64,000 nt of DNA from an uncultured cyanobacterium (lineage in GTDB: Bacteria > Cyanobacteriota > Cyanobacteriia > CAKZMO01). The stretch lies in NCBI GenBank assembly GCA_963719515.1, contig CAVRCJ010000006.1, positions 288,001 through 352,000 of the forward strand, given 5' to 3'. The notes under the pieces are model-generated. The model did no database searches. It was not told the DNA's origin and saw nothing but the letters and a program-made list of their open reading frames with translations. Both the position numbers and the translations under genes were made by a program. Positions 81 to 63,275 of the stretch are shown piece by piece; the stretch's first letter is position 1, and every line of letters starts with the position of its first letter.

Positions 81-457
81 ATAGTATTGCGGACTTTTGT
101 AGCTAAATGAACCAGCTTAAGGATTTATTTAGCTTTTAAATGGGAAGTCTCGCCCTGTATGCAAAGCATCAGCGTCGGGATAAAAATCGCGTGAGTCGAA
201 GTGCGCCCCCAATCTGATGCCAAAGGCAGGGATCAAGGGCAGTACCGAGACGAACAAATGCTAGAATTTCATTGCCAACGCGAATAAGCCGCCTACAGGG
301 GCAACGCGGGTGGCGACCTTCTGTTCTGACGCAAACGTACAGCTATGGCTGGTGAACAGTGCAGCGAATAGGATACGTGAACTGAAAATGTCGCATATCC
401 GCAGTGATTGGACGGTATTGTGTGTGAAGGATATAGCGCGGTACCGTTAGGGCAATC

Positions 458-21388: not shown

Positions 21389-22486
21389 CTATGGCGACTG
21401 GTGGGGGGGCACAGCGGCGTTTGGACCTTTTTTATCAGCGCGGCGGGCAATCTTGTCGGCTATTTCCTGCGTGTAGAGCTTAGCTGCAGATTCGATCACA
21501 TGGTCAGCATTTTCCATTTGGTTCACCCCAAACGTCACTGGGTCATCCATAATCACATGCATGCGATCGCTTCCGCGCGTTTCCCGCCTGAGCTGCTGCT
21601 GAACCTGACGAAAATAGCGGCGAAACTTTGGATTTTTGTACAGCCCCTGGTACAGAGGGCTGGCCACGATGTACACGTCAAATTCATGTTCGTCCGCGAG
21701 GTCTTGGATCGCTGATAGCGATCGCCGATTAATATCGGAGATGGGCTCGGCGCGACCCCTGACATCGCTAATATGTCCTGCGGCGTCTTCTACGACGCTT
21801 TCGGGGTTGGGGTTGTATTTAGCCATAAAGCCGCTGGGGGACACCGCGAATTCTTTCCCTTTTTTGAAGGTCTTGGTGGGCTTTTGCAAGAAGTCCGCCA
21901 GGGTTTTGCTTGAGGTGTAGAGATGCAGATGTTTGTACGAAAACCACTGAAGCTTTTGACCAAAATCGGGAGATAGCGGCGGCGTAAAGGAGCGCATCGA
22001 CGCTTGGGACAGCGGCGTTCTAGAGAGGTGGGCGAACGTCTCGCTACCGACGTCTCGCTGCCACAGGTCATAGACATGAACGATAACGACCTGTTTTGGA
22101 GGTCCCACCTGATCGATATGCCGCTCCAGCATCCAGGCGTCGTTGAATACTAACAGCGGACCGTATATGCATAGGTTGAGCGCGGTTCCCCCCAACGCTT
22201 CGCTCAAAACTTCTGGTACAACGCCCTGGTTGCAGCTTGAATCCCCTAGCACTAGCCAGTCTACAGGCTGCTCTAAACGGGTCAGCAGGTTCCATTTATG
22301 ACTGGCTAAGAAATAGCCACGGTTTGAGATCAAGTACTTGAAAAATACGTTCGCCCCGCTGTTGAGGAAAACGACCAAGACCAGCGCCCCCAAAAGATTT
22401 AGGCAAACCTCTCTCGCTTTTGAGGATCTTATTTTCTCGCTAGGGACTGAGGTTTTGACGCGATCGCCGTTGGAGGCTTGATTCAT
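21389..22486 (-). CDS. SGNH/DltD/AlgJ-like membrane-anchored protein, probable MBOAT partner
   Basis: N-terminal TM, LGDSS (block I), C-terminal ADH; directly downstream of the MBOAT gene on the same strand. Confidence 0.65.
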   Translation of the reverse strand: MNQASNGDRVKTSVPSEKIRSSKAREVCLNLLGALVLVVFLNSGANVFFKYLISNRGYFLASHKWNLLTRLEQPVDWLVLGDSSCNQGVVPEVLSEALGGTALNLCIYGPLLVFNDAWMLERHIDQVGPPKQVVIVHVYDLWQRDVGSETFAHLSRTPLSQASMRSFTPPLSPDFGQKLQWFSYKHLHLYTSSKTLADFLQKPTKTFKKGKEFAVSPSGFMAKYNPNPESVVEDAAGHISDVRGRAEPISDINRRSLSAIQDLADEHEFDVYIVASPLYQGLYKNPKFRRYFRQVQQQLRRETRGSDRMHVIMDDPVTFGVNQMENADHVIESAAKLYTQEIADKIARRADKKGPNAAVPPHQSP

Positions 22487-22515: not shown

Positions 22516-24004
22516 TTAGAACTGAAAGTAGATAAACTCAGCTGTGTCGCGACTGCTAAAGACAATAATAGCCGCCAGGAAAGCGCCGTACAGCGGCACG
22601 CGAATCCAAAATTTCAGCTGGGTTAAGGTCAGTAAGTCTTGAGACCGGAGCTGTAGCCATTGAACAGCAACCAGAGGAAGGCTAAAGAATAGCAGATCGT
22701 AGGCCAGGTCAAGGCTATTGGCAGATGGGGTTAGGCCAAGATGGGTAATCATATAGCCTGCTTGCGAAAGACTGGTAGAGCGAAACAAAATCCAGCCAAT
22801 ATTGGTTAGGAAAAACATTGTGGCAACGCTGAGCCACTGGACAAGACCCCCCAACGCGCCTTGTCTCGACGGCGGAGACCGAGACGACAAGCGCTTGTCG
22901 TCGCCATCCTCGGCGGCGCTTGGGTAGGCTTCTTGACCAGCGCTACCGATGTAGGGCTGGATGATTCGGTAGCCAATTAGCAGCGCGCCGTGGAAGGCAC
23001 CCCAAAGAATAAAGTTCCAGGCTGCTCCGTGCCATAGACCACAGAGCAGCATCGTAATTGCTAGGTTGCGATAGGTTGCTGTGCGCACCTGCGCGGTTGC
23101 CCCCCAACGGAATGTAGACGTAGTCTCGAAACCAGGTTGATAGGGAAATATGCCAGCGCGCCCAAAAATCACTTGGGTTGGCGGCAAAGTAGGGGAGCTT
23201 GAAGTTGATCATCAGCTCAAACCCCATCAGCTTGGCTAGTCCTCTAGCAATGTCAGAGTAGCCTGAGAAGTCACCGTAGATTTGCAGCGTAAACGCCAGG
23301 GTGCCGATGACAATATCGAGACCTTGGTAACTTGTATACTCCTCAAAAACGGTCGCGGCAACGTTGCCAAGGCTGTCGGCCACGACAAGCTTTTTGAAGT
23401 ACCCCCACAGAATCAAGAACAGTCCCGCGTTAATTTGATCGGCGCGGAGGGTACGAGGCGACTGAATTTGGGGCAAGAAGGTCGACGCCCGTTCGATAGG
23501 GCCGGCAACGAGCTGAGGGAAAAAGGAAACAAAAAGGGCAAAATCAATGCCGTTACGCACGGCGGACATTTTTTGCCGGTAGACATCGATGCTGTAGCTC
23601 AGGGTCTGAAAGGTATAGAACGAAATACCCACGGGTAAAATCACGTTCAAAAAAACTGGGTCGGCCTGTAGTCCCAATAGAGCGATCGCCCGCCCGGCAG
23701 TTTCCGAAAAGAAATTGAAGTATTTGAAGAACCCCAGAATTGATAGATTTGACGCCAAGGAAATTATCAAAAATATCCGCCGCGATCGCTCACTTTTCGA
23801 CTGCTCGATTTTGAGTCCTACCCAAAAGTCGATCAGGGTTGAGCCAATCAACAGCAGTAAAAATCGAGCATCCCAGTAGCCATAGAAAAGGTAGCTCGCG
23901 GTTAAAAGCAGGCAGTTTTGCGCTCTATAGCGATCCTTGAGGACAGCATATGCGGAGTAAACGATGCAGAAAAAGGCAACAAAAATGAAAGAGTTGAAGA
24001 GCAT
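22516..24004 (-). pseudogene. MBOAT O-acyltransferase (AlgI/DltB-like) split by a +1 frameshift near 23083
   Basis: Frame 1 has [35 protein letters not shown] and YIPLGGNR; frame 2 continues [15 protein letters not shown]...FIYFQF. Confidence 0.88.
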
Positions 24005-24255
24005 ACTTTGTGCGCACCTTTTTCTGTCGTCTGCCTATTCGGGCCAGACTGACTCGGTAATTTCAGTAATTCTATCCTACTGAGAGCGCTGAGCGATATG
24101 ACGGGAAGAATTACTGCGGCCTCTACTATCTTGACGCAGACGGAGCCGTACACTTATAGGTAAGGCACTAGGCTTTAATAGAATATACGGAAAATGTCCT
24201 AATGCTTAAGACATTTGCACGCCACATTGCCTATGCTATGTGAGGGTTTGAGCCC

Positions 24256-24280
24256 GCGACATTGTCCTAGACAATGTGGC
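24256..24280. promoter_or_regulatory. Inverted repeat, candidate operator in the divergent MBOAT/gasdermin-like promoter region
   Basis: gcgacattgtc-cta-gacaatgtggc (10/11 match); a half-site copy gccacattg lies at 24221-24229. Confidence 0.45.
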
Positions 24281-24322
24281 AAAGCTAACTCCTAGATGAA
24301 GCTACACAGGATATAGCACAAA

Positions 24323-24970
24323 ATGGTTCAGGATATCGAGAGAATGCTGGGGGAGATACTTCCCGAAATAAACTTTCTAAAAATTTCAAACTCTAAAATA
24401 ATTCCTGGCTCTCTACTGGAGTCTTCTGATATTGATCAATGGGTTGGAAACATCCAAGACGTTTTAGTGACTCATTTCGACAAAGAGGATTTTGAAACGG
24501 AAATCATCCCAGCCTCTTTGAACCTCAGACAAGCAAAGCGCTCGTTTTCCGGGGACGCAGCGATTAATATTTTAGGATTATTTGGCCTCAACCTAAAGCG
24601 ACAGTCTCAGCTCAGCCTAAACATCGAAATAGCTCAGGTCAAAGTTCGCCAGTTTAAGTCGAGTAAGATAGGTATCATCCAGCTGGAGAGAGTATTTAAA
24701 AATCTCAAGGAAGAAGACAGCGATACCTTTAAAAGTTTGCGAGGACGATTCTTGGTGTTCTCCGCGTTCTACGCCAGTCAGCTGAGACTAGAGTTTAGCG
24801 AGCTTTCTGGCAGCGGTGGTAGTCTCAAAACAGATTTGGAAGAAGTAGACGCTGGCATTGAATTTTCTGTTCGAGAAGATGCGGTATTCGTTAGCAAGAA
24901 CGATGCAATTCCGTTCGGCGTCTTTGGCTACGAAATTACGAAAACCGGCGTGATTCTCGAGACAGTATAG
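24323..24970 (+). CDS. Gasdermin-like pore-forming-domain protein (putative)
   Basis: Motif order resembles bacterial gasdermins: I.PGSLLE, VG.I..V, two amphipathic beta-hairpin regions, FLV.S.FYA..LRLEF, PFGV. Upstream in-frame TAG at 24314; caggat RBS-like site. Confidence 0.65.
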   Translation: MVQDIERMLGEILPEINFLKISNSKIIPGSLLESSDIDQWVGNIQDVLVTHFDKEDFETEIIPASLNLRQAKRSFSGDAAINILGLFGLNLKRQSQLSLNIEIAQVKVRQFKSSKIGIIQLERVFKNLKEEDSDTFKSLRGRFLVFSAFYASQLRLEFSELSGSGGSLKTDLEEVDAGIEFSVREDAVFVSKNDAIPFGVFGYEITKTGVILETV

Positions 24971-24991: not shown

Positions 24992-25618
24992 TTACTCAAT
25001 CCGATATATCCAGGTCTGCAGATACAGGTCGGGCTGCCCTTTTGGTTCAGCGAGATACCGGTCTCCTTGCTCTATCAATAGCCACTGCTTTTGCGTCTCC
25101 AAGTCCGCCATTTTGCTCTTAAAGTCGCTGCTCTCATAAAAATCAGGGCGCAGGGTAAAAATAATCTGTCCGCCTGGTTTCGTCACCCGAATCAGTTCGT
25201 CGAACGCGCGGCTAGGGGCGTGGCCATAGGTAAAGACGCCGCAGGCGGTTACCGCGTCAAACATGTCGCTAGCAAAATCTAAAGGCTCCCCCAAGATCAT
25301 CTGCCGCAGTTCAGTATAGACCGCCTTCTTTTGCGCCTCAGCCAGCATTCCTTCAGAGAGGTCAATGGCGACCAGATGGCGATAGCCTTCCTTATGCAGC
25401 CACTGACCCAGGGTACCGGTACCCGCTCCGGCGTCTAGAATACAAGCGGTTTTAGGAACATATTTAAGCGTCAGGTCGACGATGGGCTCGCGGCCAGGGC
25501 GACCAAATACGCGGGTTAGATCGTCTTCGTATTCCCGAGACCACTGATTGTAGCGCTGAGCTAGCTCTTGGTTGTTCTGAGAATCGTAAACCCACTGGAC
25601 TTTGTCTTCTGTATTCAT
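24992..25618 (-). CDS. Class I SAM-dependent methyltransferase
   Basis: ILDAGAGTG, IDLSEGML, LIRVTKPGG; start overlaps the PKS stop by 4 bp. Confidence 0.92.
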   Translation of the reverse strand: MNTEDKVQWVYDSQNNQELAQRYNQWSREYEDDLTRVFGRPGREPIVDLTLKYVPKTACILDAGAGTGTLGQWLHKEGYRHLVAIDLSEGMLAEAQKKAVYTELRQMILGEPLDFASDMFDAVTACGVFTYGHAPSRAFDELIRVTKPGGQIIFTLRPDFYESSDFKSKMADLETQKQWLLIEQGDRYLAEPKGQPDLYLQTWIYRIE

Positions 25619-27456
25619 TGGCTTGTTGGCTTAGTTTGGTTGATTGCTAAGCAGCGTCTGAGCCGCTGGGCCAGCGTCAACACGCAGGGTTCCATCATCA
25701 TGGTGAAGTGATTGCCGGGAACCCGGTGAAACGCTAGCGGTTGGCCAGAAAGCTGGCTCCAGCCCCAGGTGGGGTCTTTGAGCGTCGCCTCTAAGCCGGG
25801 GAGAAAGCTGTCTTCTGGGTGGACGTCACTGGCCCGCAGAAGGGTGATTGAGCTGGGATATCCCACCTGAAGCTCGTACTGGGTCATGGCCTGCATATTG
25901 GCTTTGTACACCTGGAACAGCCGCTTCAGCTCTGCTACGTTGAACGCCTGCCCTGCTTTTTTTAAAGCAGAGCAGAGCAGGTCTATCTGCTGGTCTAAGC
26001 TCAAGCTGCCCAGCGCCGGCGGTGAGTCCAACGCTTGCTCAAAGGAGCGTTCAAATACGCTGATGAACCCTTTGGCGTATCGGCTGTCGCTCCAGTGAAT
26101 GGCATCTTTTTCATAGTCCACAACGGGCACCTGAATATCCATCACCACAAGCCGGGAGTCGTGACCTTGGGCCTGTAGTTGGTTAGCAATTTCAAAGGCA
26201 ACTTTGCCCCCAAAAGAGTGGCCGCCCAGAAGATAAGGGCCGTGGGGCTGGACCGCTTGGATGGCTTTGATGTGGTGGGCAGCAATGTCGGCCATGGTTG
26301 TGTAGGGGTCAACCTCTTCATCAAGACCGAGCGATCGCAAGCCATAGAATGGCTGCTCAGACCCTAAATGGCGGGCAAGGGGCTCTAGTTCGAACACGTT
26401 GCCCAAAATTCCAGGCAGGCAGAAAAAGGGCGGTTTGGACCCCTGGGGCTGGATGGCAACGAGGGTAGAGCAAAAGCCGCTTTGGCTACAGGAGGGCGCT
26501 GACTGGTCTAACGCCAGGGTCTCTGCGAGGTAGTCGACCAGCGCGTCTAGGGTGGGGTAGTCGAACAGGAGGGTTGAGCGAAGACTGCGGCCCAGGCTTT
26601 TTTGCAGAGAGCTGCGCAGCTCGATCGCCATCAGCGAGTCTAGCCCTAGGTCAAACAGCCGCTGAGTGGGCTCAATGCTCTTCGGGTCTTGGAAGCCCAG
26701 AGTTTTCGCAGCCGTGGCCCGAACGCTGGCGGCCAGCGCTTCGCGGCTCGTCGGCAGAGTCTGAGCGATCGCTAATGACTGTGGTGCAGGCTGGGTAGCA
26801 GGCAGGGTAGCTGCTTGGGACATCACGGTCTGATAGAAGGGAGACACCTGCTGCCCCTCTATCCAGGTCGACCATTGCACCGGCAGCACGACCACTTGAC
26901 TGACGTCTTGTCCCGTCAGCTGGCCAAGTAATTCAAACCCCTCTGTAGGGCGAATAAACTCAAAGCCCTGGGCCTCTAGCTTCAGCTGCTGATCCTCAGT
27001 CAGCTTCGCGGCCATCCCCACGTCTTTCCAAGCACCCCAGTTGAGGCACAGGGCCGGTAGCCCCAGGGCTCGGCGATGGTGAGCGATCGCATCTAAAAAC
27101 GCGTTAGCGGCGATATAGTTCCCTTGCCCTAAGGTGCCTGTGACTGAGGCAGCAGAGGAGAAACAGATAAACAGATCTAGAGGTAACGCTTGGGTCAGCT
27201 GGTGCAGATGCCAAGTCCCCAACACTTTGGGGGCCATGACCCTTTCGAAGCGCTCCCAGGACTGGTGCTGAAGAACGCCGTCGTCTAAGACACCAGCGGC
27301 ATGAATGACGCCGCGGAGGGGGGAGGGACAGCTATCGATTAGGCGGGCGACGTCGTCACGCTGGGACACATCCGCCTTGACCACGAGAATCTGGGCCCCG
27401 CTTTGCTCTAGCTGGTGAACCTTCTCTTGGACCTCTGGCTGAATTTGGGAGACCAT
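25615..27456 (-). CDS. C-terminal part of NRPS-PKS: KR catalytic half, ACP, thioesterase
   Basis: HAAGVLDDG, NYIAANA (KR Tyr), LGLDSL (ACP Ser), GHSFG (TE Ser), GNH. Confidence 0.92.
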   Translation of the reverse strand: MVSQIQPEVQEKVHQLEQSGAQILVVKADVSQRDDVARLIDSCPSPLRGVIHAAGVLDDGVLQHQSWERFERVMAPKVLGTWHLHQLTQALPLDLFICFSSAASVTGTLGQGNYIAANAFLDAIAHHRRALGLPALCLNWGAWKDVGMAAKLTEDQQLKLEAQGFEFIRPTEGFELLGQLTGQDVSQVVVLPVQWSTWIEGQQVSPFYQTVMSQAATLPATQPAPQSLAIAQTLPTSREALAASVRATAAKTLGFQDPKSIEPTQRLFDLGLDSLMAIELRSSLQKSLGRSLRSTLLFDYPTLDALVDYLAETLALDQSAPSCSQSGFCSTLVAIQPQGSKPPFFCLPGILGNVFELEPLARHLGSEQPFYGLRSLGLDEEVDPYTTMADIAAHHIKAIQAVQPHGPYLLGGHSFGGKVAFEIANQLQAQGHDSRLVVMDIQVPVVDYEKDAIHWSDSRYAKGFISVFERSFEQALDSPPALGSLSLDQQIDLLCSALKKAGQAFNVAELKRLFQVYKANMQAMTQYELQVGYPSSITLLRASDVHPEDSFLPGLEATLKDPTWGWSQLSGQPLAFHRVPGNHFTMMMEPCVLTLAQRLRRCLAINQTKPTSQ

Positions 27457-30400
27457 CTTCCCCGACGGCTAGCTAAGACGATACAGCTAGCCCCCTGCTC
27501 AATTAGCCACTGCGCCGCCTCAAGACCGAGCCCCCCTAAGCCGCCGGTCACTAGATAGCTGCCCTCTGAATGGATGCGCGCTGAATCCACCTCCGGCATC
27601 GCCAAGACCACCTTGCCCCGATGCTGCGCCCCCGCCATAAACCGAAAGGCGTCAACCACGTTGGCGAGGGGGAAGGTCTGCAGGGGGAGGGGCTTAAGGC
27701 TGCCGTCGGCAAAGCCTGACAGAAGGCTTTTAAATAGCACAGGAAGTAAACCGGGATTTTTTACCGACTCTTCTCCCAAGTCGAAAGGAAAATAGGCGGC
27801 ATCAGGACGGCGCTGCTGCACCGTTTCCTCACTCCAAATGTCGCGCTTACCCAACTCCACAAAGCGCCCGTTTTGAGCCAGGACCTCAAAGCTTTTGTCG
27901 ACAAAGTCTTTGCTAAAGCTATTGAGAACGATGTCAACGCCTTGGCCGTCGGTGAGTCGCTCAATGTCCTCAGCAAAATCCAGCGTGCGGGAGTTCATCA
28001 CGTGGTTGACGCCCATGGCCTTGAGGAACGCCCACTTTCCGGGGCTAGCGGTGCCAAACACCTCTGCCCCTGCCCGCTGCGCCAGCTGCACAGCGGCCTG
28101 ACCAACCCCACCTGCAGCGGAGTGAATGAGGATGCGATCGCCCGCCTGAATGTGGGCTAGCCCGTGGAGAGCGTAGTGGGCCGTCAAGAAGGCGGCGGGA
28201 AGGGTTGCGGCGTCCTGAAAGGTGAATCCTGCGGGCAGTTTGGCCACCTGGCCAGCAGGCGTGGTGACCCAGCTGGCTAGACTGCCAGGAGCCAAGGCCA
28301 TGACGCGATCGCCCGCCTGCAGGTGAGAGACCTTTTCTCCCACGGCAGCCACTTCACCGGCGCACTCGAACCCTAAGAGAACATCCCCCGACTGCCGAAT
28401 CCCTAGCTCGGTTTCGTAGTACTCCTGAAGCATACCCAGGGCATTGAGGACATCCCGAAAATTCAGTCCGGCAGCGCAGACTCGAATTTCCACCTCGTCG
28501 GGCCCAGGCGGGCGGCGCGTCAGTGGCGCTAGCCTGAGGTTCTCTAAAAGGCCATAGTGCTCTATTTGGACCCGCACCGGGGCGGTGCCGGGGTCAAGTT
28601 TGGCGTCCAAAGTAAAGGGCTTCAGCCGGGGAACGTAGCGGACGCCGTGGCGATAGCCTACTTGGTCTTCTCGATCGGGAGACAAAAGCTCGGCCTGCAG
28701 CGCTTCTGCGGCCTGCGTAGCGTCTGCCGACGGGTCTAAGTCCAGACGTCTACACTGAAGCTCTGGATATTCAAGGGCGATGGCCTGGCCCAAGCCCCAG
28801 AGGGGAGCTTGGTGAACCTGGAGCGGGCCTGAATCGATGGGTCTTGCCCCCTGGGTGACGAGCCACAGGGGGGGGCGCTCTCCCTCAGCTTTAGCCAGCG
28901 CCTGAACGAGATGCAGCGCGCTCCCCGCCCCCAGACGCTGCGATCGCGCTATATGCCCTTCCGTCAGCCCTAGCCCTTGCTCTTCCTCTTCGACGCTCCA
29001 TAGATGAATCACGCCCCGCCAGGGAAGCGGGCAGTCGGCAAGGAGCTGCTGAAATTGTTCGGGAGCTGCCGGGTCAAGCCGATAGCGCTCTGCCGTCCCA
29101 TCATTTGCGGCTAGCTGGTAGCCCGGACCGGGAACAACCAGCGTACAGCGGTGCCCCTGCTGAAGCAGCCTTTGGGCTAGGGTTTCGCCAATTTCGCCGG
29201 GGTCCGTCAAGATCAGCCAGCGACCAGGGGTAGCATCTTGGGGCGCGATCGTTTCCGCTGCAGGTTGCCAGGCAATCTCATAGAGGTGGTCTTCTAGCCC
29301 TGCTGCGCCGCTGGCGTTGGCCTCCATGCCCTTTCGTAACGCCAGCCCAGAGGCCAGCGCAACCAGATTCCCTTCGTCGTCAAATAGATGAACCTCGGCG
29401 GTTAGGGTTTCGCTGACGTCAGTCTTTCCCGGTTGGAGGGTGGCGTAGCTCCACAGGTGGCGGCTGGGCGGACGATAGACCTGCAGGCGCTCCAAAATTA
29501 CGGGCAAGTAGGTTCCCTCAGGCAAGATAGCCCCCAGGGTGTGAAGACCGGCGTCGAGAACCGCCGGATGCAGCCGGTAGCGGCCGACGTCTCGCCACAC
29601 CGCATCCGGCACCCGAAGACGGCTCAGGGCAACGCCATCACCCTTCCACAGCTGTTCTATACCCCGGAAGCTGGGGCCAAAGTCGATGTGGTGCGATCGC
29701 CGCCCCTGATAGAAGCGTTCAGCGGAAATGCCGTCGGTACAGGCGGCCTGCCAAGCCGCTAGGTCGAACGCCACCGGCTGAACAGAGGCGGGGGATGTGG
29801 GCTGTTCCGCCCTTATCTGCCCCGAGGCGTGACGGGTCCAAACTGGTTCATCAGAGGACTGCTCTGCAGTCGGGGCTGCGCCAAAAATCTCAAACCGATA
29901 GACCTCTTTACCCTCCGAGGTTAGGGCAATCTGCAGGGTATGGGGCGAGGCGCTGTCTTCGGCCAGCACTAGGGGCTGCTCGATAAATATTTCCTCTAAG
30001 ACAAGCTGCTCTACGCGCTGGCCGTCAGTCTTAGCAAACGCTTTTGCGCCTGCGGCTAGCGCAATTTCGACATAAGCCGTCAGCGGCAAGACGGCCTCGC
30101 CATAAATGCGGTGGTCGGCAAGGTAGGTCAGGGCGGCATTGCATAGGCTAATGCGAGATTGAAACCGCAGCTCTTGGGAGCCCGCCAGCTGTATCTGCTG
30201 GCCGAGGAGGGGATGTCCGTAGGGGACAGGCGCTACCGCAGGGAGAGGAGGCTGAGGGTCTAGCCAGTAGCGCTGCCGCTGAAATGGGTAGGTGGGCAGG
30301 TGCTCCCGGCGACGGGGGTAGTCGCGGTCGAAGCCGAGCCAGCTGACGGGGACGCCCCGCAGGTAGAGCTGAGAGAGGCTATCGAGGATGACCTGCCAGT

Positions 30401-33400
30401 CTGTTGGCGAGGGTGCCTGCGGTGAGGATTGCGGAGCCTTGGGCGATCGCAAGCTGGGGAGCCATAGCCCATCGTCGCTGGGCAAGCACTGCCGCCCTAA
30501 GGCCAGCAAAGTTGGCTTCGGGCCAATCTCCACCCTGATTCCTGCCCCCTGCTGGGCCAGGCTGTTCATGCTGGCGGCGAACTGGACGGGCTGGGTGACG
30601 TGGCGTACCCAGTAGTCTGGGGTGGCGATGTCATCGGTGGCTAGCTGTCCGGTCACGTTGCTGATGAGGGTGAGCTGGGGCCGCGAAAAGCTCACCTCGC
30701 GGGCCGCCTGCGCGAACTCGGCTAGCATCGGCTCCATGAGCGGCGAGTGGAAGGCGTGGGAGACGCTGAGTTCTTTGCTCTTGACGCCGGCCACGTTTAG
30801 GCGATCGCCAACCGCGCACACTGCGGGGCGATCGCCCGAAATCACGACGCTCTCGGGGCCGTTGACTGCGGCGATCGTAACGCTATGCCTACCGCTGCTT
30901 TGGCCGTTCTGCTTACAGGCGGCATCCTCGTAAGCTCGAATCGCTGCAGCCACCTGCTCTGGAGAGGCCATCAGAGCCATCATGGTGCCGTCCTGGGGCA
31001 ATCCCTGCATCAGCCTGCCCCGATGGGCGATCAGCGTCAGGCCGTCTTCAAGGCTAAACACCCCCGCCACGCAGGCGGCCACATATTCCCCAACGCTGTG
31101 CCCCAGAACGACCCCCGGCTCAATGCCCCAGGAGAGCCACAGCTGAACCAAGGCGTATTCCACCGCGAACAGGGCCGGCTGGGTGTAGGCGGTCTCCTGG
31201 AGCTTCGAGGGGGTGGCCGCGTCGGCAGGGTATATCACCTCCAGCAGGGGCAGCGCTAGGTGGGGCCGCAGGATGTCCTCGCACCGCCGCATCGCCGCCC
31301 GAAAGGTGGGCTGGGTCTCGTAGAGCTGGCGGCCCATGTTGACGTATTGGGAGCCCTGCCCGGTGAACAAAAAGGCGATCGCCGCCCTTTCAGACGGCTG
31401 GACCACGGCCCTTTGCTCAGGAGCCCGCTCGCGCAGCCGCTCCTGCAGCTGCGCGGGGGAGTCTGCCACCACGGCCAGCCGGTGGCTAAAGTGCTTGCGT
31501 CCGCCGTTGGCCGTAAAGGTGACGCTGGCGAGGTCTAGGTTGGGATGGGCAGCGAGGTAGTCTATGTAGCGGTGGCGCAGCGTCTGCAGCGCCGCGGCGC
31601 TCTTGGCCGAGAGGGTCAAGATGTGGGACGGGCGGTCCTTGTGTTCGGGTGGCTCTTGCTGCGGCTGGTCCTGCGGCGCTTCTTCTAGCACCAAATGAAC
31701 ATTGGTGCCCCCCATACCAAACGAGCTGACACCGGCCCGCCGAGGCTGACCCTGGGTCCGCCAGTCCCGGCGCTGGGTATTGACGAAAAACGGGCTGTTG
31801 GCGAAGTCAATTTTGGGGTTCGGCGTCTCGAAATTTAAGCTAGCGGGAATCACCTGATGCTTGAGGGCCAGGGCCGTTTTGATGAGGCCCGCCACCCCCG
31901 CCGCGTTGGCCAGATGTCCCACGTTGGTTTTCACCGAGCCAATGGCGCAAAATCCGGTTTCCGCCGTCGTGGCCCGGAAAGCCTGGGTCAGGGCGGCTAC
32001 TTCAATGGGGTCGCCCAGCGCCGTACCCGTACCGTGGGCTTCGATGTAGCCGATCGTGCTGGCCTCGACGTCGGCAGCAGCCTGAGCGTCCGCAATCACC
32101 GCCGCCTGGCCTTCCACAGAGGGGGCGGCGTAGCTCACCTTTAAGGCCCCATCGTTGTTGATGGCGGACCCTTTAATCACCGCGTAGATATCATCGCCAT
32201 CGGCCAAGGCGTCCGACAATCGCTTGAGCACCACAATCCCCGCCCCGTTGCCAAACACCGTACCGCTCCCTTGGGCATCAAAGGCGCGGCAGTGGCCGTC
32301 GGGGGAGAACACTGCCCCTTCCTGGTACAGGTAGCCCGTCTTCTGCGGCAGCCGGATGGCCACACCGCCCGCCAGCGCCATGGTGCATTCGCCGTTCAGC
32401 AGGCTCTGCGCAGCGCTGTGGACCGCCACCAGCGCGGTGGAGCAGGCCGTTTGGATATTGACGCTGGGGCCGGTGAGGTTGAGCTTGTAGGACAGGCGAG
32501 TGGGCAGGAAATCGGGCGACTGTCCGATGGTCATTTGAATATCGCCGACGGTTTCTAGAAACGAGCGGTTGGCGGCGTAGCCCAGGCTGGGGCAGACGTT
32601 GTTGATGAAGTAGGTGTTGATTCCGCCTCCCGCGTACACGCCAACGGTGCCGGGATAGGTCTCCGGGTCATAGCCCGCGTCTTCCAGGGCTTCGACGGCG
32701 CATTCCAAAAAGACCCGCTGCTGGGGGTCTAGCTGCTCGGCTTCTCGGGGGCTGTAGCCAAAGAAGGGGGCATCAAACTGGTCCACATCGGCCAAAGCCG
32801 CCCCGGCGTTGACGTAGTTGGGCTGGCTGAGCCAATCCGGGTCAGCAGGCTCTAGCTCGCCGGGGGGAAAGGCGGAAATCGACTCTACGCCGTCACACAG
32901 ATTTTGCCAAAAGGTCTCCACGTCCGGGGCACCGGGAAACCGCCCCGCCATGCCGATGATGGCGATCGCCTCGTGGGATAGCCGCTCTCGCGGGCGGCGG
33001 GGCTTGTGGGGCTGCGCCGCCTGGGCTGGCTGACTGAGGTGCTGGGCCAGCCGCTGGATGGTGGGGTATTGGAACAGCGTGACGACGGAGAGTTCGGCAG
33101 TCAGGCCTGTTGACAGATCTGAGCCAAATGCCTCCACTAGCTTTTGATGGGCCTGAATCAGCAGCAGGGAGTTTCCTCCTAGCTCAAAGAAATTATCGCC
33201 AATGCCGACTTCGTCTAGCTGCAGTAGGTCTCGCCACACCTGGGCGATGCGCTGCTCCGTTTCGGTTTGGGGCAGCACCAGCTCGGTGGCCAGCTCGGGG
33301 CGCGATCGCTCTGGGACTGGCAGGGCCCGTCGGTCTAGCTTGCCGTTGGCGTTGAGGGGCATCGCGTCTAGCAGGACAAACGCCGCCGGGACCATGTAGT

Positions 33401-36400
33401 CCGGCAGTCGGTCCTGCAGGTAGCACCGCAGGGTGGGTTCGAGGTCGCGGGCGATTTTGCCTTTGAGGGGGTTGTTGGCGTAGCGGCTCCAGTCATGGGT
33501 CGGCGAGGTTGGGGTTGGCGGGGTTGGACTGTACCACAGCAGCGGCTCCACTGGTGCAACTGGGTCACGCTCAGCGCCATCTCTAGCCCCCAGTTCTGAG
33601 GGGAGACCGGACTGGAAGTCCCCCGCAGCCTCTAATTGCCCTGGATGCTGCCGCTCAAGAACGACGTCGTAGCAGCCGGGACTTCCCGCCGACCAGGTTA
33701 CCGAGACGGCGTAGGACAGCGCCTCCCCCAGCTGCCACCAGTCCTCTGGCTCAACGCCCCGCCCTGCCCGAATCTGAGATTTGAGTTTACCAACGGTGCA
33801 ATCATCCTCGCTCTGCAGCGCCGCCAGCAGCGCCATCTCTGTCTCCAGACGGGCATTGGGCACCTGCTCAACCACGAGCGCCTGGGGCCGGTCTTGCAGC
33901 AGCAGCCGAACCTGGTCCAGCGTTAGCGGTCCTCTGCCCGACTCCCCAGCATTCCAAGCGAGCTTTGTCACCTCGGGCGAGGCAACCGGCGTGCCCTCAA
34001 CCCACAACGTCACGTCGTAGCGAAACGCCGTCAGCTCATTGCGGGCCTGCCCCCGCTTCAGCTGCACGACAACATGGCTAATTTTGTCCGTCTGCGCCGC
34101 CAGGGCGTAAAATAGCGCCGGATCAATCAGCAGCTCCTCCTCGTTGTCGATACTCCTTTGCAGTCGCTGCCGCAGCTGCCGTTTGGACAAAGTATCGGGC
34201 GATCGCGCTAGCTGGACGGAAGCGTGGAAGGCCTCCAGCAGCGGCAGACTGCGGATATCGCCGATAAAAATGAACCCGCCGGGCCGAACCGCCGCAGCCG
34301 CTTTCTCCAGCACCTCAACGAAGTAGTCCACGCTGGGAAACAGCTGAATCACGGAGTTGACGACTACCGCGTCAAAGGAATCGGGCGCAACGCCGCGAAA
34401 ATCATCGGCGGCCCGCTGGCGCAGCGCCACCTGGGACCAATCTCCCGCCAGGGCGGGGAGCTGCCGGGCCACGTAGTCCAGGGCTTCCTGAGAAATGTCG
34501 GTTCCTAGGTAGTGGGCGCAGGTGGGGGCCACCCGAAACAGCAGCATTCCCGTACCGCAGCCGATTTCAAGGACGCGGGTCGGTCCTCCTGCGCGAATTC
34601 TGGCCACCGTAGCCTCCACCCAGTCCCGCATCTGCGCCGCCGGGATGGGCTGGCCGCTGTAGCTGTCGTTCCAGCCGACGATGTTGAAGGTGGGGTCGGC
34701 GCTGTCATCCATCTTCGTTTGGCCATAGACGACGTTGTCCACCTGCTGCCACTGGGCCACCTGCTCCGCCTGGGCCGTTGAGCTGATGTCCTGATGACCC
34801 ACCACATAGGCCACCACTCGCCTATCGCCGGGGGTGTCTTCTCGGGCCACTACTGCCGCCTGCTGCACCGCCGGGTGGTGACTCAGAGCAGACTCAATTT
34901 CCCCCAGCTCAATGCGAAAGCCGCGAATTTTCACCTGGTCGTCAGTGCGGCCCAAAAATTCCAGCGTGCGATCGCTGCGGTAGCGCACCAGGTCGCCGGT
35001 TTTGTACAGCCGGTAATCCCCAAACGCGGCTCTCGCGGTTTCAAAGGGGTTGGGTATAAATCGCTGCTGGGTCAGCTCCGGCCGATTCCAGTAGCCGCGG
35101 GTAACGCCAGCGCCGCCGATGTATAGCTCTCCCGCACCGCCGATGGGCACGGGCTGGAGGTGGGAATCTAGCAGGTAAATTTGGGTATTGGGGATGGGGC
35201 GACCAATGGGAACGGTGGTGTCTTCCGGCTGGGGAGTGCAGCGATGGACCGTGGCCCAGACGGTCGCCTCTGTGGGGCCGTATTCGTTGTAGAGCGCGGT
35301 GTCTTTGAGGGAGCTGTGGTGCTGGGTGATGAGGGCGGGAGGACAGACCTCGCCCGCCACAATGACGACCTGCAGCGAGGCCAGTGAGTCGGAGTCGCGG
35401 AGACTCTCTAGGCACAGCCCATAGAGCGACGGCAGACAGAGGAGATGGGAGATGCGCTCTTGCGCGATCAGCTGCGTCAGCTGCTGCGGGTCTTTTTGAA
35501 CCGCATAGGCGGGAATAACCAGGGTGCCGCCCGTGCAAAGCGTCCAGAAAATGCCCGCAACGGAGCTATCGAAGGCGAAGGAGGACAGCAGCAGGTAGCG
35601 GGTGACGGGCTCGGGGTAGTAGTCGAGGCGGGCCGCCGTGGAGTGGAGCAGGTTTCGGTGAGAGACCAAAACGCCCTTAGGGTTGCCCGTGGAGCCCGAG
35701 GTGTAGATTACATAGGCTAGGTTGTCTGGCCTAGCCTGCTGGGCCGGATTTTCGCAATTTTCCTGGGCAATCTCCGGCCAGTCGGCGTCGAGGCAAACTA
35801 GCTCAAGCGAGGTCTCCGGAAGCTGCGACAGAACGTTTTGCTGGGTGACCAAAATAGACACCTGAGCATCCGCCAGCATGAACGCCAGCCGCTCTTTGGG
35901 GTAGGCCGGGTCTAGAGGCACATAGGCTCCGCCCGCCTTAAGGATGCCAAGAATACCCACCACTATATCCAGCGATCGCTCAACGCAAATCCCCACCAGA
36001 GCGTCTGGGCCAACGCCTCGCTCTAGCAAATGGTGTGCAAGCTGGTTCGCCCGAAGATTCAGCTGCTCATAGGTTAAAGCATCATCTCCGCAGGTTAGCG
36101 CCACAGTATCCGGCGTTTGGGTAGCCTGATGCTCAAACCAATGGTGAATCGCCTGGAATTTTGAGCGATCGCCTGGAGCGTCATTCCACTCAATGAGAAG
36201 CTGATGCTTTTCGGCTTTTCTTAGCAAGGGCAAGCAGGATATGGGCTGCTGAGGATTGCGAACGATAGCCTCTAGCAGCGTTTGAAAGTGCTCCATCCAC
36301 TGCTTTATTGTGGATGAGGTAAACAGCAGCTGATTATACTGCGCACAAACGGTAATCGCGTCCGTTGTTTTCGAGGTGATTAGGGCCCAGTCAAATTTTT

Positions 36401-36959
36401 CTGATGCAGTGAAGGAGCCGTTGGTTTCAAAATCTTGGCTTATGAAAACAGCCGAAAATTCCTCAAGATCCTTGACTTCACTATCCGGTTTTGACGACGT
36501 CGACTTCCAGGTCAATTCATTTAGGGCGTCGAAATTTCGCCAGCGACGAGCAGCAAACTCAACGGTCGGATCTTCGGAGAAATCTACAGAAATAGGGATA
36601 AGGCTATCCGATACCACGGAGTCTTTTCTGAAGTCGTTTTTCTCGCCTCTTTTTTGTTCTCGCCGCCTTGCTTTAGCAGGCTTCGCCTCAGCTGATCTTA
36701 CTTGAGAGGGCAGCGTAGATGTAATTTTAAAAGCATCTAAGGATGACAGCCGGTGAAGCAGAATTTGAAACGCTATCAACAGCAGGTCATCTGCGGAGAT
36801 TCCAAGGGAATACGCTGAGCTGACAATCCTTTCCGTAAGTGTTTCGCACAGCCGTATACTGTGCCTTTCTTCCTTGTATGCGCGCGGATGATGTCGAAGT
36901 CGATCCGTCAGCAAATTTAGAATAGGAAAATCATCCACTTGTCTAGACCCTCTGTTCAT
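27408..36959 (-). CDS. Hybrid NRPS-PKS: partial C, A with embedded methyltransferase, T, KS, AT, DH, ER, KR N-terminus (frameshifted into 25615-27456)
   Basis: YTSGSTGNPKG, NEYGPTE, LEIGCGTG, LGGNSL, TACS/HGTGT/GHL, GHSVG and HAFHS, HRIYGEAVLP, IHSAAGGVG, TGGLGGLG. Confidence 0.95.
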   Translation of the reverse strand: MNRGSRQVDDFPILNLLTDRLRHHPRAYKEERHSIRLCETLTERIVSSAYSLGISADDLLLIAFQILLHRLSSLDAFKITSTLPSQVRSAEAKPAKARRREQKRGEKNDFRKDSVVSDSLIPISVDFSEDPTVEFAARRWRNFDALNELTWKSTSSKPDSEVKDLEEFSAVFISQDFETNGSFTASEKFDWALITSKTTDAITVCAQYNQLLFTSSTIKQWMEHFQTLLEAIVRNPQQPISCLPLLRKAEKHQLLIEWNDAPGDRSKFQAIHHWFEHQATQTPDTVALTCGDDALTYEQLNLRANQLAHHLLERGVGPDALVGICVERSLDIVVGILGILKAGGAYVPLDPAYPKERLAFMLADAQVSILVTQQNVLSQLPETSLELVCLDADWPEIAQENCENPAQQARPDNLAYVIYTSGSTGNPKGVLVSHRNLLHSTAARLDYYPEPVTRYLLLSSFAFDSSVAGIFWTLCTGGTLVIPAYAVQKDPQQLTQLIAQERISHLLCLPSLYGLCLESLRDSDSLASLQVVIVAGEVCPPALITQHHSSLKDTALYNEYGPTEATVWATVHRCTPQPEDTTVPIGRPIPNTQIYLLDSHLQPVPIGGAGELYIGGAGVTRGYWNRPELTQQRFIPNPFETARAAFGDYRLYKTGDLVRYRSDRTLEFLGRTDDQVKIRGFRIELGEIESALSHHPAVQQAAVVAREDTPGDRRVVAYVVGHQDISSTAQAEQVAQWQQVDNVVYGQTKMDDSADPTFNIVGWNDSYSGQPIPAAQMRDWVEATVARIRAGGPTRVLEIGCGTGMLLFRVAPTCAHYLGTDISQEALDYVARQLPALAGDWSQVALRQRAADDFRGVAPDSFDAVVVNSVIQLFPSVDYFVEVLEKAAAAVRPGGFIFIGDIRSLPLLEAFHASVQLARSPDTLSKRQLRQRLQRSIDNEEELLIDPALFYALAAQTDKISHVVVQLKRGQARNELTAFRYDVTLWVEGTPVASPEVTKLAWNAGESGRGPLTLDQVRLLLQDRPQALVVEQVPNARLETEMALLAALQSEDDCTVGKLKSQIRAGRGVEPEDWWQLGEALSYAVSVTWSAGSPGCYDVVLERQHPGQLEAAGDFQSGLPSELGARDGAERDPVAPVEPLLWYSPTPPTPTSPTHDWSRYANNPLKGKIARDLEPTLRCYLQDRLPDYMVPAAFVLLDAMPLNANGKLDRRALPVPERSRPELATELVLPQTETEQRIAQVWRDLLQLDEVGIGDNFFELGGNSLLLIQAHQKLVEAFGSDLSTGLTAELSVVTLFQYPTIQRLAQHLSQPAQAAQPHKPRRPRERLSHEAIAIIGMAGRFPGAPDVETFWQNLCDGVESISAFPPGELEPADPDWLSQPNYVNAGAALADVDQFDAPFFGYSPREAEQLDPQQRVFLECAVEALEDAGYDPETYPGTVGVYAGGGINTYFINNVCPSLGYAANRSFLETVGDIQMTIGQSPDFLPTRLSYKLNLTGPSVNIQTACSTALVAVHSAAQSLLNGECTMALAGGVAIRLPQKTGYLYQEGAVFSPDGHCRAFDAQGSGTVFGNGAGIVVLKRLSDALADGDDIYAVIKGSAINNDGALKVSYAAPSVEGQAAVIADAQAAADVEASTIGYIEAHGTGTALGDPIEVAALTQAFRATTAETGFCAIGSVKTNVGHLANAAGVAGLIKTALALKHQVIPASLNFETPNPKIDFANSPFFVNTQRRDWRTQGQPRRAGVSSFGMGGTNVHLVLEEAPQDQPQQEPPEHKDRPSHILTLSAKSAAALQTLRHRYIDYLAAHPNLDLASVTFTANGGRKHFSHRLAVVADSPAQLQERLRERAPEQRAVVQPSERAAIAFLFTGQGSQYVNMGRQLYETQPTFRAAMRRCEDILRPHLALPLLEVIYPADAATPSKLQETAYTQPALFAVEYALVQLWLSWGIEPGVVLGHSVGEYVAACVAGVFSLEDGLTLIAHRGRLMQGLPQDGTMMALMASPEQVAAAIRAYEDAACKQNGQSSGRHSVTIAAVNGPESVVISGDRPAVCAVGDRLNVAGVKSKELSVSHAFHSPLMEPMLAEFAQAAREVSFSRPQLTLISNVTGQLATDDIATPDYWVRHVTQPVQFAASMNSLAQQGAGIRVEIGPKPTLLALGRQCLPSDDGLWLPSLRSPKAPQSSPQAPSPTDWQVILDSLSQLYLRGVPVSWLGFDRDYPRRREHLPTYPFQRQRYWLDPQPPLPAVAPVPYGHPLLGQQIQLAGSQELRFQSRISLCNAALTYLADHRIYGEAVLPLTAYVEIALAAGAKAFAKTDGQRVEQLVLEEIFIEQPLVLAEDSASPHTLQIALTSEGKEVYRFEIFGAAPTAEQSSDEPVWTRHASGQIRAEQPTSPASVQPVAFDLAAWQAACTDGISAERFYQGRRSHHIDFGPSFRGIEQLWKGDGVALSRLRVPDAVWRDVGRYRLHPAVLDAGLHTLGAILPEGTYLPVILERLQVYRPPSRHLWSYATLQPGKTDVSETLTAEVHLFDDEGNLVALASGLALRKGMEANASGAAGLEDHLYEIAWQPAAETIAPQDATPGRWLILTDPGEIGETLAQRLLQQGHRCTLVVPGPGYQLAANDGTAERYRLDPAAPEQFQQLLADCPLPWRGVIHLWSVEEEEQGLGLTEGHIARSQRLGAGSALHLVQALAKAEGERPPLWLVTQGARPIDSGPLQVHQAPLWGLGQAIALEYPELQCRRLDLDPSADATQAAEALQAELLSPDREDQVGYRHGVRYVPRLKPFTLDAKLDPGTAPVRVQIEHYGLLENLRLAPLTRRPPGPDEVEIRVCAAGLNFRDVLNALGMLQEYYETELGIRQSGDVLLGFECAGEVAAVGEKVSHLQAGDRVMALAPGSLASWVTTPAGQVAKLPAGFTFQDAATLPAAFLTAHYALHGLAHIQAGDRILIHSAAGGVGQAAVQLAQRAGAEVFGTASPGKWAFLKAMGVNHVMNSRTLDFAEDIERLTDGQGVDIVLNSFSKDFVDKSFEVLAQNGRFVELGKRDIWSEETVQQRRPDAAYFPFDLGEESVKNPGLLPVLFKSLLSGFADGSLKPLPLQTFPLANVVDAFRFMAGAQHRGKVVLAMPEVDSARIHSEGSYLVTGGLGGLGLEAAQWLIEQGASCIVLASRRGRWSPKFSQRSKRRFTS

Positions 36960-37791: not shown

Positions 37792-38324
37792 TTGAGCAAG
37801 ACAGGCTCCGAATTCGAGTCAATTCACATTCTAATTGGTCGCTTCCTTGCCGATCGCCATTCCCCTGCTCCGCTCGATACGGCTCGCATCTTAGGCAACA
37901 ACCCGAAATTTGACTGGGGAGAGGGGATGCCGCTCGAAAAGGTGATCGACTCCCCAGAAGCCTTCGATGCCCTAATGCTCAACCCGTCGCTGTTTCGCAA
38001 CGCGATCGCCATCATCGAGCCTTGGGAGCACGTCGGCTATAACCGTTTAGGGGAGCACGTGCGAGCCTCCGAAAACGTGGCCTACCTGGCGCAGACTATT
38101 GCAGACTGCGACTCGGTGCTGTTTCCGATGTGGTCGTCAGGGCCGTTCGACCTAGACAAACTTATCCCGGTAATCAGCTCAGGGCTGGCGATCGGCGTGG
38201 AAGGCGGAGATCCTCCGGTGCGCAACCCAGCTACCTTCGAGGGCTCAAACGCCTCCCAAGCCGAGATGATTGCCCTCACCGAGTATGTTGACTTTGAGAC
38301 TAAGGAAGTGCGGCGCTCGTTTAC
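37792..38324 (+). pseudogene. Probably truncated conserved hypothetical gene, interrupted at an IS end
   Basis: Protein-like ORF whose last 25 codons run through the IS left-end hairpin. Confidence 0.55.
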
Positions 38325-38391
38325 AGAAGACGTCGTAAAGCCCACTCCTTTAGGGGTGGGATATAAGGCGGCGAGCCAGAGGCGAGCAATT

Positions 38392-38526
38392 CTATTCCTC
38401 TAATCGCAGCCGATCTATCCATTCCTCTATGAGTTGGGTCATGGTTTTGTCCCGTTCTTTTGCAATACTTCTAAGCTTTTGCAGTCTTTGCTCAGACAGC
38501 CTGATGGTAAAGTTCTTTTTTGTCAT
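38392..38526 (-). CDS. 44-aa ribbon-helix-helix (CopG-like) protein inside the IS; absent from the ORF track
   Basis: Hand translation MTKKNFTIRLSEQRLQKLRSIAKERDKTMTQLIEEWIDRLRLEE shows an alternating beta-strand followed by two helices. Confidence 0.8.
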   Translation of the reverse strand: MTKKNFTIRLSEQRLQKLRSIAKERDKTMTQLIEEWIDRLRLEE

Positions 38527-38569: not shown

Positions 38570-38870
38570 AGTTCTTCAACATACTCAAGGTTCGGCGGGT
38601 TCGGCTGAGAAGTTCAGCCGGTAAAGCTTTGAGCGTACCGAAAGGATGTAGCTTAGCAGTTTAGACGGGTAAAACAGAGCCGCGAGCGGTAAAATGCCGG
38701 GTTCGACATTGTCTGCAAAGCCTAAAGGAAGAAAACCGTCTTCGGTTGCTTGTGGAAACACAACCAGGCAGGGCGTTGTCTGATGGGAGAGTAGATGTTA
38801 GACAGGCTCAGCCTGCATTCTACGCCGGTATCCCAGAATCCCACGCGCTTTAGCCGTGGGAGTGCGTCAA
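38570..38870 (+). ncRNA. Candidate structured RNA in the right half of the IS (omegaRNA/reRNA-like)
   Basis: No credible ORF; at least five hairpins including a GAAA tetraloop, and a possible pseudoknot. Confidence 0.45.
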
Positions 38871-38914
38871 ATCGGTGCCGGGAGTACGTTACGGCAAAAC
38901 GCCAACCTATACCT

Positions 38915-63195: not shown

Positions 63196-63275
63196 GGGAC
63201 AGCTCCAAGTAAAGCATTCAAGATCGGCAGGCAAAACAGTGGCCAGCGTCAGCCTACCAAAACCGCCGCTGGCTT

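What the first reader, a model, noticed from the sequence alone, without database searches (positions are those of the whole stretch)
24323..24970. Gasdermin-like protein with no inhibitory tail, no cysteine and no adjacent protease, embedded beside an NRPS-PKS cluster
Seen: a 215-aa, visibly AT-richer ORF, convergent with the methyltransferase (21-bp gap containing HIP1) and divergent from the MBOAT. Its segments follow the order I recall for bacterial gasdermins: helix then NFLKISNSKIIPGSLLE; VGNIQDVL; first amphipathic hairpin region (LNLRQAKRSFSGDAAINILGLFGLNLKRQSQLSLNIEI); helix IIQLERVF; FLVFSAFYASQLRLEF; second hairpin region (GGSLKTDLEEVDAGIEFSV); IPFGVFGYEI. It ends 9 residues later, has zero Cys and cannot extend upstream (TAG at 24314). 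Established: characterised bacterial gasdermins typically carry a palmitoylated N-terminal Cys, a short C-terminal inhibitory peptide and a neighbouring protease; cleavage-independent gasdermins are known from fungi (RCD-1) and Trichoplax. Inference: this may be a pore-domain-only bacterial gasdermin controlled some other way (partner protein, ligand, lipid or transcription), possibly linked to the flanking biosynthetic genes.
Basis: partly seen in the sequence, partly recalled or inferred. Interest (0 to 1): 0.82.

Follow-up and report, generated by a model that had tools for sequence, protein, structure and literature searches.

The report
Tailless, lipid-anchor-free bacterial gasdermin family
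This cyanobacterial gene encodes a gasdermin, a membrane-punching cell-death protein, from a family that lacks both the inhibitory tail and the fatty-acid anchor of the studied bacterial gasdermins, so it must be switched on in some way not yet described for bacteria.

Summary
The 215-aa ORF (24323-24970, +) is a real gasdermin-fold protein. A family profile hits Vitiosangium bGSDM at E 1.5e-5, and the model's best structural matches are bacterial gasdermins.

It is not a truncation. All 51 full-length family members counted are 199-222 aa, end before the point where Vitiosangium bGSDM is cut, and have no N-terminal cysteine. Related contigs confirm the stop, and selection is purifying. Amphipathic membrane hairpins are conserved. 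A four-copy model packs head to tail (score 0.52 against 0.00 for controls; possibly from memory).

The gene is solitary. It occurs in 4 of 5 genomes of its genus and 5 of 5 of a second genus. The NRPS-PKS/MBOAT link is not supported: congeners carry those genes elsewhere.

Best reading: a naturally pre-cut gasdermin kept latent by its missing palmitoyl anchor (the equivalent engineered mutant is nearly non-toxic in print) and fired by a non-proteolytic cue. The trigger and the target membrane are unknown. I found no description of such a clade.

The parts
24323..24970 (+). Tailless, Cys-less gasdermin-fold gene, 215 aa
24323..24367 (+). Alpha-1 thumb helix (residues 1-15). Gln3 stands where bGSDMs have the palmitoylated Cys; net charge -3
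   Evidence: Helix 2-12 in the model; register read by hand; charge
24533..24631 (+). Predicted membrane hairpin 1 (residues 71-103) with hydrophobic tip; about 8 residues shorter than in Vitiosangium bGSDM by my reading of the printed alignments
   Evidence: Alternating hydropathy over 45 rows, descending strand p=0.0006; ascending window 64-84 not significant, p=0.21
24812..24874 (+). Predicted membrane hairpin 2 (residues 164-184)
   Evidence: Alternation p=0.013 and 0.008; low model confidence here, pLDDT 56-58
24908..24970 (+). Invariant P-F motif (P197, F198; counterpart of Vitiosangium V212-F213), last beta hairpin and stop codon; no inhibitory peptide follows
   Evidence: contigs of runs X2 and X4 cross the stop without gaps
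24192..24287 (.). Copy of a dispersed repeat of about 100 bp, 35 bp upstream of the start codon; role unknown
   Evidence: 28 blastn rows in the genome, 13 near-full-length copies besides this one; folds with z -3.2; no Rfam match

Best explanation
A stand-alone bacterial gasdermin that is made already in the cut form and is controlled without proteolysis. SHOWN: gasdermin fold; family-wide absence of the inhibitory peptide and of the N-terminal Cys; purifying selection; conserved amphipathic hairpins; solitary gene. PREDICTED: side-by-side homo-oligomers through the globular domain, as in gasdermin rings. INFERRED: it stays soluble and latent because it has no palmitoyl anchor to drive membrane insertion, so no tail is needed. 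A non-proteolytic cue (a phage or stress-induced protein, or an acyl or lipid ligand or membrane state that replaces the anchor) lowers the barrier, the two hairpins insert and a beta-barrel pore forms. INFERRED, weakest step: the target is the cell's own membrane, making it a one-gene suicide-type defence.
For: Fold: profile to 8SL0/7N51, E 1.5e-5 and 2.3e-5 over positions 14-203; Foldseek ranks 1-6 are 7N51, 7N50 and 7N52, E 3e-6 to 6e-5; VIA Z 10.4, rmsd 3.8, 188 aligned, and the top 14 rows are all gasdermins; 26 of 33 members match PADLOC bGSDM and 18 of 33 NCBIfam prok_gasdermin. Tail: 51 of 51 end 9-20 residues from the motif Pro, against 26 for the toxic Vitiosangium 1-237 fragment and 55 for full length and 81 for the Gloeothece gasdermin. 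Cys in the first 15 residues: 0 of 51, while 2 of 2 canonical cyanobacterial gasdermins found here have it. Selection: pN 0.14 against pS 0.74 to G403; 15 of 18 listed substitutions synonymous. Hairpins. Tetramer: score 0.52, best control 0.00, 20 of 30 solved pairs and 1 of 23 single chains reach the mark, runs share at least 58% of contacts, pLDDT at least 66, two distinct faces head to tail. Latency: in 10.1101/2023.04.20.537723 (section 7 read) the C4A mutation of the tail-deleted Vitiosangium protein gave near-complete rescue of growth, and the tail-deleted fold stayed inactive in simulations. No N-terminal hydrophobic signal is visible by eye in the alignment.
Against: No activity data. 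None of the 21 loci read lies in a recognisable defence island, and genus-wide retention (4 of 5, 5 of 5) is unlike the patchy spread usual for defence genes (own knowledge). The tetramer pass may be from memory of solved gasdermin pores, one of three runs scored only 0.19, and the job is unlike the calibration. VIA aligns the model's end to residue 233 of the pore form 8SL0 but to 257 of 7N52 and 247 of 7N50, inside their tail regions, so the last strand might act as a mini-latch in this subclade. CHAT genes lie one gene away at 2 of 9 cyanobacterial loci, slightly more than chance (P about 0.03-0.07, post hoc). Recognition in the Atlas search was below its threshold.
Confidence: 0.4

Rival explanations
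1. An outward-acting pore former: harmless in the producer, released on lysis and triggered by a lipid of a grazer or competitor, like a pyroptolysin without its Ig-like targeting domain.
For: Pyroptolysins are gasdermin-fold, mostly solitary genes, non-toxic in E. coli, need no cleavage in several cases and lack some finger helices (10.64898/2026.10.05.756811, main text parts 1-2 read). This family is also solitary, outside defence islands and kept genus-wide.
Against: No targeting domain and no visible signal peptide. No member of 325-400 aa turned up: the unrestricted phmmer scan gave 30 hits of 132-220 aa plus one of 3861 aa, the profile search to 389 aa gave only 203-222 aa, and the 390-2000 aa search gave none, which is weak evidence.
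Confidence: 0.22
2. A domesticated gasdermin with a non-lethal membrane job, such as small or transient pores, solute release or membrane remodelling.
For: Vertical, genus-wide retention among housekeeping genes: beside dnaE in 3 of 5 g93 genomes and near holA, DUF3127 or NAD(P)H-hydrate genes in most metagenome loci. Not found in phage, plasmid or viral collections.
Against: Rare overall (2 of 401 sampled cyanobacteria). It diverges faster than most neighbouring genes (74% against 55-96% to G403; 60% against 75-99% to G404). It sits at four different places in four congeners.
Confidence: 0.13
3. Control by a partner encoded elsewhere: an RCD-1-like second gasdermin, an inhibitor protein, or one of the many CHAT proteases clipping the last strand.
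For: RCD-1 shows that tailless gasdermins can be held off until a second variant is present (PMC11760362, passages). The genomes carry 16-24 CHAT matches each, two of them near g93 copies. The last hairpin is nearly invariant in the closest seven proteins.
Against: No second gasdermin in the own genome (100% complete) by three profiles. The homo-oligomer model is asymmetric, whereas RCD-1 homodimers were predicted symmetric. The two CHAT proteins share only 25% identity in the domain and are not beside the gene in the other seven cyanobacterial loci. 22 of 40 proteins lack the last strand altogether, leaving nothing to clip.
Confidence: 0.12
4. Part of the flanking NRPS-PKS/MBOAT cluster, for example activated or acylated by its product.
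For: Adjacency in this genome; contigs of runs X2 and X4 reach across the 21-bp gap.
Against: Separated from these genes in G403 and G404, which carry them. No such genes in the 20 other loci read. The gene faces against both neighbours. The methyltransferase beside the G403 copy is only 22% identical over 96 residues.
Confidence: 0.03
5. A truncated or dead gasdermin, or an assembly artefact.
For: This assembly has splits in both neighbouring genes. The g93 copy in G433 is shorter and on a long branch.
Against: The stop is crossed without gaps by contigs in two runs, 51 of 51 members are short, and selection is purifying.
Confidence: 0.02

Closest known systems
Bacterial gasdermins (bGSDM; Vitiosangium 7N51/8SL0, Runella 7N52, Bradyrhizobium 7N50; NCBIfam NF051890, PADLOC PDLC02986, Pfam PF26164)
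   Same: Fold, two amphipathic hairpins, the L-x-F/P-F motif, detectable sequence homology; 4 of 14 hits carry a precomputed PF26164 match.
   Different: No C-terminal peptide, no N-terminal Cys, no linked protease (43 of 50 bGSDMs have one: 10.1101/2021.06.07.447441, passages), about 50 residues shorter. The five members scored singly reach at most 24.6 bits against a cut-off of 100. A Cys-less bGSDM (Gillisia) is already known, listed among gasdermin-protease operons.
Neurospora RCD-1-1/RCD-1-2
   Same: Gasdermin without an inhibitory C-terminal domain, activated without cleavage (PMC11760362, passages); structural match Z 6.5-7.3.
   Different: Fungal; needs two allelic proteins. Only one copy was found per genome here.
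Trichoplax gasdermin
   Same: Pore-domain-only gasdermin; Z 9.3 to its pore.
   Different: Recalled, not read here: it is held as a disulfide-linked dimer and released by reduction. This protein and 27 of 51 relatives have no Cys at all.
Pyroptolysins (10.64898/2026.10.05.756811)
   Same: Bacterial gasdermin fold, solitary genes, several active without cleavage.
   Different: They are 325-400 aa with a fused CDC-like sterol-sensing domain, absent here; no sequence link was found.

Membership tests
Gasdermin superfamily | Gasdermin N-terminal fold | tested here: met
Gasdermin superfamily | Two amphipathic beta hairpins for membrane insertion | tested here: met
   Three of four strand windows alternate significantly; the fourth window (64-84) does not, though residues 71-83 alternate by inspection
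Gasdermin superfamily | Side-by-side oligomerisation | tested here: inconclusive
   Model score 0.52 against 0.00; may reflect solved pores
Gasdermin superfamily | Forms membrane pores and kills cells | not testable with these tools
   Needs liposome, EM and expression assays
Canonical protease-activated bGSDM | C-terminal inhibitory peptide of about 20-30 aa after an exposed loop | tested here: not met
   51 of 51 end 9-20 residues from the motif Pro, against 26 to the cut and 55 to the end in Vitiosangium; caveat on the last strand
Canonical protease-activated bGSDM | N-terminal palmitoylated Cys (most members) | tested here: not met
   0 of 51
Canonical protease-activated bGSDM | Adjacent dedicated protease gene | tested here: not met
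   No immediately adjacent protease recognised in 21 loci, only 9 of which show both neighbours; CHAT one gene away in 2, a subtilase 3.4 kb away in L013
Canonical protease-activated bGSDM | NCBIfam NF051890 score above cut-off 100 | tested here: not met
   Query has no hit; four relatives score 15.7-24.6 bits; two canonical controls score 103.5 and 111.8
RCD-1-type heteroallelic gasdermin | A second, incompatible variant in the same cytoplasm | tested here: inconclusive
   No second copy in the genome; allelic pairs across strains not testable
Pyroptolysin | Fused C-terminal CDC-like Ig domain | tested here: not met
   Protein ends at 215 aa
Pyroptolysin | Sterol-dependent pore formation | not testable with these tools
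   Needs liposome assays

The most novel reading that the evidence does not exclude
A widespread clade of minimal bacterial gasdermins (about 200-220 aa) that are complete, self-assembling pore formers gated by a ligand, lipid or infection-derived protein instead of a protease. This would be the first cleavage-independent gasdermins acting in bacteria and a candidate for the bare pore module to which tails, lipid anchors and targeting domains were later added.
Probability: 0.5. Interest if true: 0.88.

Novelty: new variant of a known kind. Interest (0 to 1): 0.74.

Why it matters
The bacterial gasdermins described in the papers I read are switched on by a protease that removes a tail, and an October 2026 preprint places cleavage-independent activation in animals and fungi only. 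Deleting the tail kills cells, so a family that keeps the tailless form under purifying selection needs another off-switch. That makes an open question directly testable with one small gene: what besides cleavage can gate a gasdermin, and what does the palmitoyl anchor contribute? It also offers a natural minimal scaffold for placing bGSDMs, RCD-1, pyroptolysins and CDCs on one evolutionary path.

Tried and rejected
Sequence searches with the single protein found nothing useful in Pfam, NCBIfam, PADLOC or PDB sequences; only the family profile and the structure reveal the fold.

No relatives were found in plasmids, phages, viral contigs (0 of 71 and 0 of 69 candidates) or viral structures (no match at E 0.001). 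No longer fused forms were found (weak). P0036 (3861 aa, 9 stretches, E 4e-4) was left out without inspection. No second gasdermin was found in the genome; the one weak NF051890 row (E 0.35) was not followed.

No promoter or terminator consensus and no Rfam match lie around the gene. No RNA holder was listed, so expression is untested. Neighbourhoods outside cyanobacteria could be read only from 12 metagenome contigs, several redundant or cut short, because no genome handle outside the phylum was available.

The tree separates the 51 from two canonical cyanobacterial gasdermins by a long branch, but two outgroup rows (one a fragment, one shortened) cannot show monophyly among all gasdermins. 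An acidic thumb helix as a general latch was rejected: it is acidic in the 19-row clade that holds the query but basic in many others.

Nine paper searches listed no paper on a tailless bacterial gasdermin clade. Earlier scan findings gave nothing by sequence, place or the specific words; the 8 of 35 shown for the word gasdermin concern other things.

Full report
OBSERVATION. The window holds an ORF at 24323-24970 (+) of 215 aa with no cysteine, bounded upstream by an in-frame TAG at 24314. It converges on a class I methyltransferase across 21 bp and diverges from an MBOAT gene. Its GC is 0.434 against 0.570 for the genome. The genome is a 100% complete cyanobacterial assembly whose congeners are named Elainellaceae MAGs.

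IT IS A GASDERMIN. The single sequence matches nothing in Pfam, NCBIfam, PADLOC or PDB sequences. A scan of 1.84 billion representatives gave 31 hits at E 0.001: 27 of 199-220 aa, three partial ones and one 3861-aa protein that I left out uninspected. A profile of 33 members matches Vitiosangium bGSDM over positions 14-203 at E 1.5e-5, and its only other PDB rows are gasdermins. PADLOC bGSDM is matched by 26 of 33 members and NCBIfam prok_gasdermin by 18 of 33, far below the curated cut-off in the four relatives scored singly. The AlphaFold2 model (pLDDT 82.9) finds the three bGSDM crystal structures first in Foldseek (E 3e-6 to 6e-5). In the wide VIA search of 48,161 chains the top 14 rows are gasdermins, best Z 10.4, rmsd 3.8 over 188 residues. 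The Atlas lists bGSDM clusters at 0.97, with recognition below its threshold.

IT IS TAILLESS BY DESIGN. I tallied 51 full-length sequences (45 aligned plus 6 from loci; some near-identical; P0013, P0018, P0023, P0036, P0006, further cluster members and four contig-cut loci left out). They are 199-222 aa, end 9-20 residues from the Pro of the conserved P-F-G motif, and none has Cys in the first 15 residues; 27 have no Cys at all. The equivalent distances in Vitiosangium are 26 to the end of the toxic 1-237 fragment and 55 to the natural end. Two canonical cyanobacterial gasdermins found as controls both begin with the Cys; the complete one runs on for 81 residues. The model's last residue aligns to residue 233 of the pore form 8SL0. 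Against this, it aligns to 257 of 7N52 and 247 of 7N50, within their tail regions, so the final strand could overlap the latch site; but 22 of 40 proteins lack that strand. The stop is no assembly slip: contigs from runs X2 and X4 (one study) cross it without gaps, while contigs differ by indels at the splits in both neighbouring genes. Selection is purifying: pN 0.14 against a saturated pS 0.74 to congener G403, and 15 of the 18 substitutions listed in the gene are synonymous (the table was cut, 32 rows not shown).

PORE MACHINERY. Mean hydropathy over 45 rows alternates along the descending strand of hairpin 1 (p=0.0006) and both strands of hairpin 2 (p=0.013, 0.008); the ascending window 64-84 does not reach significance (p=0.21). 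A four-copy prediction scored 0.52 (runs 0.52, 0.19, 0.64) against 0.00 for the best of three controls; 20 of 30 solved pairs and 1 of 23 single chains reach that mark; contacts agree by at least 58% and pLDDT is at least 66. One face (13-16, 62-67, 108-126, 146-147, 201-214) meets another (19-47, 134-142, 196-198), an open head-to-tail chain. Gasdermin pores are solved, so the pass may be from memory.

CONTEXT. The gene was found in 2 of 401 sampled cyanobacterial genomes, in 4 of 5 genomes of its genus and 0 of 12 others in the family, and in 5 of 5 genomes of genus g93 and 0 of 18 others in that family, always as one copy. Named relatives outside the phylum are Bacteroidota. I read 21 loci (9 cyanobacterial, 12 metagenomic; only 9 show both neighbours). 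The four congeners have four different neighbourhoods; g93 copies lie beside dnaE, an epimerase, a chloride channel or a histidine kinase; most metagenome copies lie among holA, DUF3127, decarboxylase and NAD(P)H-hydrate genes. None has NRPS, PKS or MBOAT genes except this window, and G403 and G404 carry those genes apart from their gasdermin. No adjacent protease was recognised. CHAT genes lie one gene away in L006 and L045, and a subtilase 3.4 kb away in L013. With 16-24 CHAT matches per genome, two of nine has P of about 0.03-0.07 after the fact; the two are only 25% identical and appear by eye to carry export signals. I treat this as probably chance, not excluded.

HOW IT MOST LIKELY WORKS. 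Removing the tail from three canonical bGSDMs arrests growth (10.1101/2021.06.07.447441, passages), so a conserved tailless protein needs another brake. The same laboratory showed that a C4A mutation in the tail-deleted Vitiosangium protein nearly restores growth, that C4A proteins leak liposomes poorly, and that the tail-deleted fold stays inactive in simulation until the palmitoyl enters the membrane (10.1101/2023.04.20.537723, section 7 read). This family is the natural version of that double mutant. I infer that loss of the anchor makes loss of the tail tolerable, that the protein is kinetically trapped, and that a non-proteolytic cue releases it. The cue is not identified. I put self-directed, defence-type death first (0.40) because gasdermins act from within and no export or targeting element is visible. 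An outward toxin triggered by foreign lipid (0.22), a domesticated non-lethal role (0.13) and a trans-encoded partner (0.12) remain open, mainly because the gene avoids defence islands and is kept genus-wide. The gene-cluster link (0.03) and truncation (0.02) are unlikely. Fold (about 0.98) and native taillessness (about 0.9) are far more secure than the mechanism.

COMPARISON AND NOVELTY. It belongs to the gasdermin superfamily by fold and sequence but fails the tests for a canonical protease-activated bGSDM: no tail, no Cys, no linked protease, sub-threshold NCBIfam score. Each trait has a partial precedent: Cys-less Gillisia and 7 of 50 bGSDMs without an adjacent protease, tailless RCD-1 (PMC11760362, passages), solitary pyroptolysins (10.64898/2026.10.05.756811: abstract, main text parts 1-2 of 3 and one methods section read). 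That preprint names only animals and fungi for cleavage-independent activation. I also saw passages of PMC13475620, PMC10989679, PMC10584675 (it reports unannotated gasdermin clusters without discussing tailless forms in the passages shown) and 10.1101/2023.05.28.542683. Nine searches listed no description of this clade. The library lacks most subscription papers, bioRxiv supplements are closed, and members may sit unremarked in published tables (387 metagenomic homologues in one Table S4) or under PF26164. Verdict: a new variant of a known kind, with a mechanism that is unexplained and testable with one gene. Interest 0.74.

Noticed in passing
window 24192-24287: A dispersed repeat of about 100 bp with short terminal inverted ends and an internal palindrome (MITE-like by my reading): 28 blastn rows in the genome, a second related subfamily, strong folding (z -3.2), no Rfam match; also hit in congener G402. 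This copy lies 35 bp before the gasdermin start.
   Followed up: partly
window 22516-24004 (-): The MBOAT gene is split near 23083 in this assembly; congener G403 has an unbroken 473-aa orthologue and one contig of run X2 differs by an indel there, so this is an assembly error or a strain-specific break.
   Followed up: partly
window 25615-36959 (-): A hybrid NRPS-PKS (A, KS, AT, DH, then KR, carrier and thioesterase domains) appears as two overlapping ORFs; contigs of runs X1 and X4 differ by indels near 27457-27460, so it is probably one gene. Its end and the methyltransferase recur in G404. Product unknown.
   Followed up: partly
window 21389-22486, 37792-38403, 38795-39328, 39329-40258: Four ORFs near the cluster with no Pfam or NCBIfam match; the first stays beside the MBOAT gene in G403.
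   Followed up: no
L038:1468-1923 (G294): A canonical Cys-bearing gasdermin that stops at 151 aa, overlapping a pentapeptide-like ORF; the only NF051890 match in 401 sampled cyanobacteria.
   Followed up: no
L047:5998-8388 (Gloeothece plasmid NC_014533.1): A 318-aa canonical gasdermin with an unusually long tail, followed not by a protease but by a 360-aa membrane-type protein with no NCBIfam match, near a VapC toxin pair and a CRISPR RAMP gene.
   Followed up: no
L046:373-999 (G433): This g93 copy ends right after the last conserved strand and sits on a long branch; it may be decaying or show that the last hairpin is dispensable.
   Followed up: no
L001:7723-8475: The G403 gasdermin also converges on a class I methyltransferase, but it is only 22% identical to the window's, so probably coincidence.
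   Followed up: yes
window 61567-63234 (-): A protein with IQCH-like ATP-grasp and PGM1 C-terminal domains beside a triple-GAF protein.
   Followed up: no
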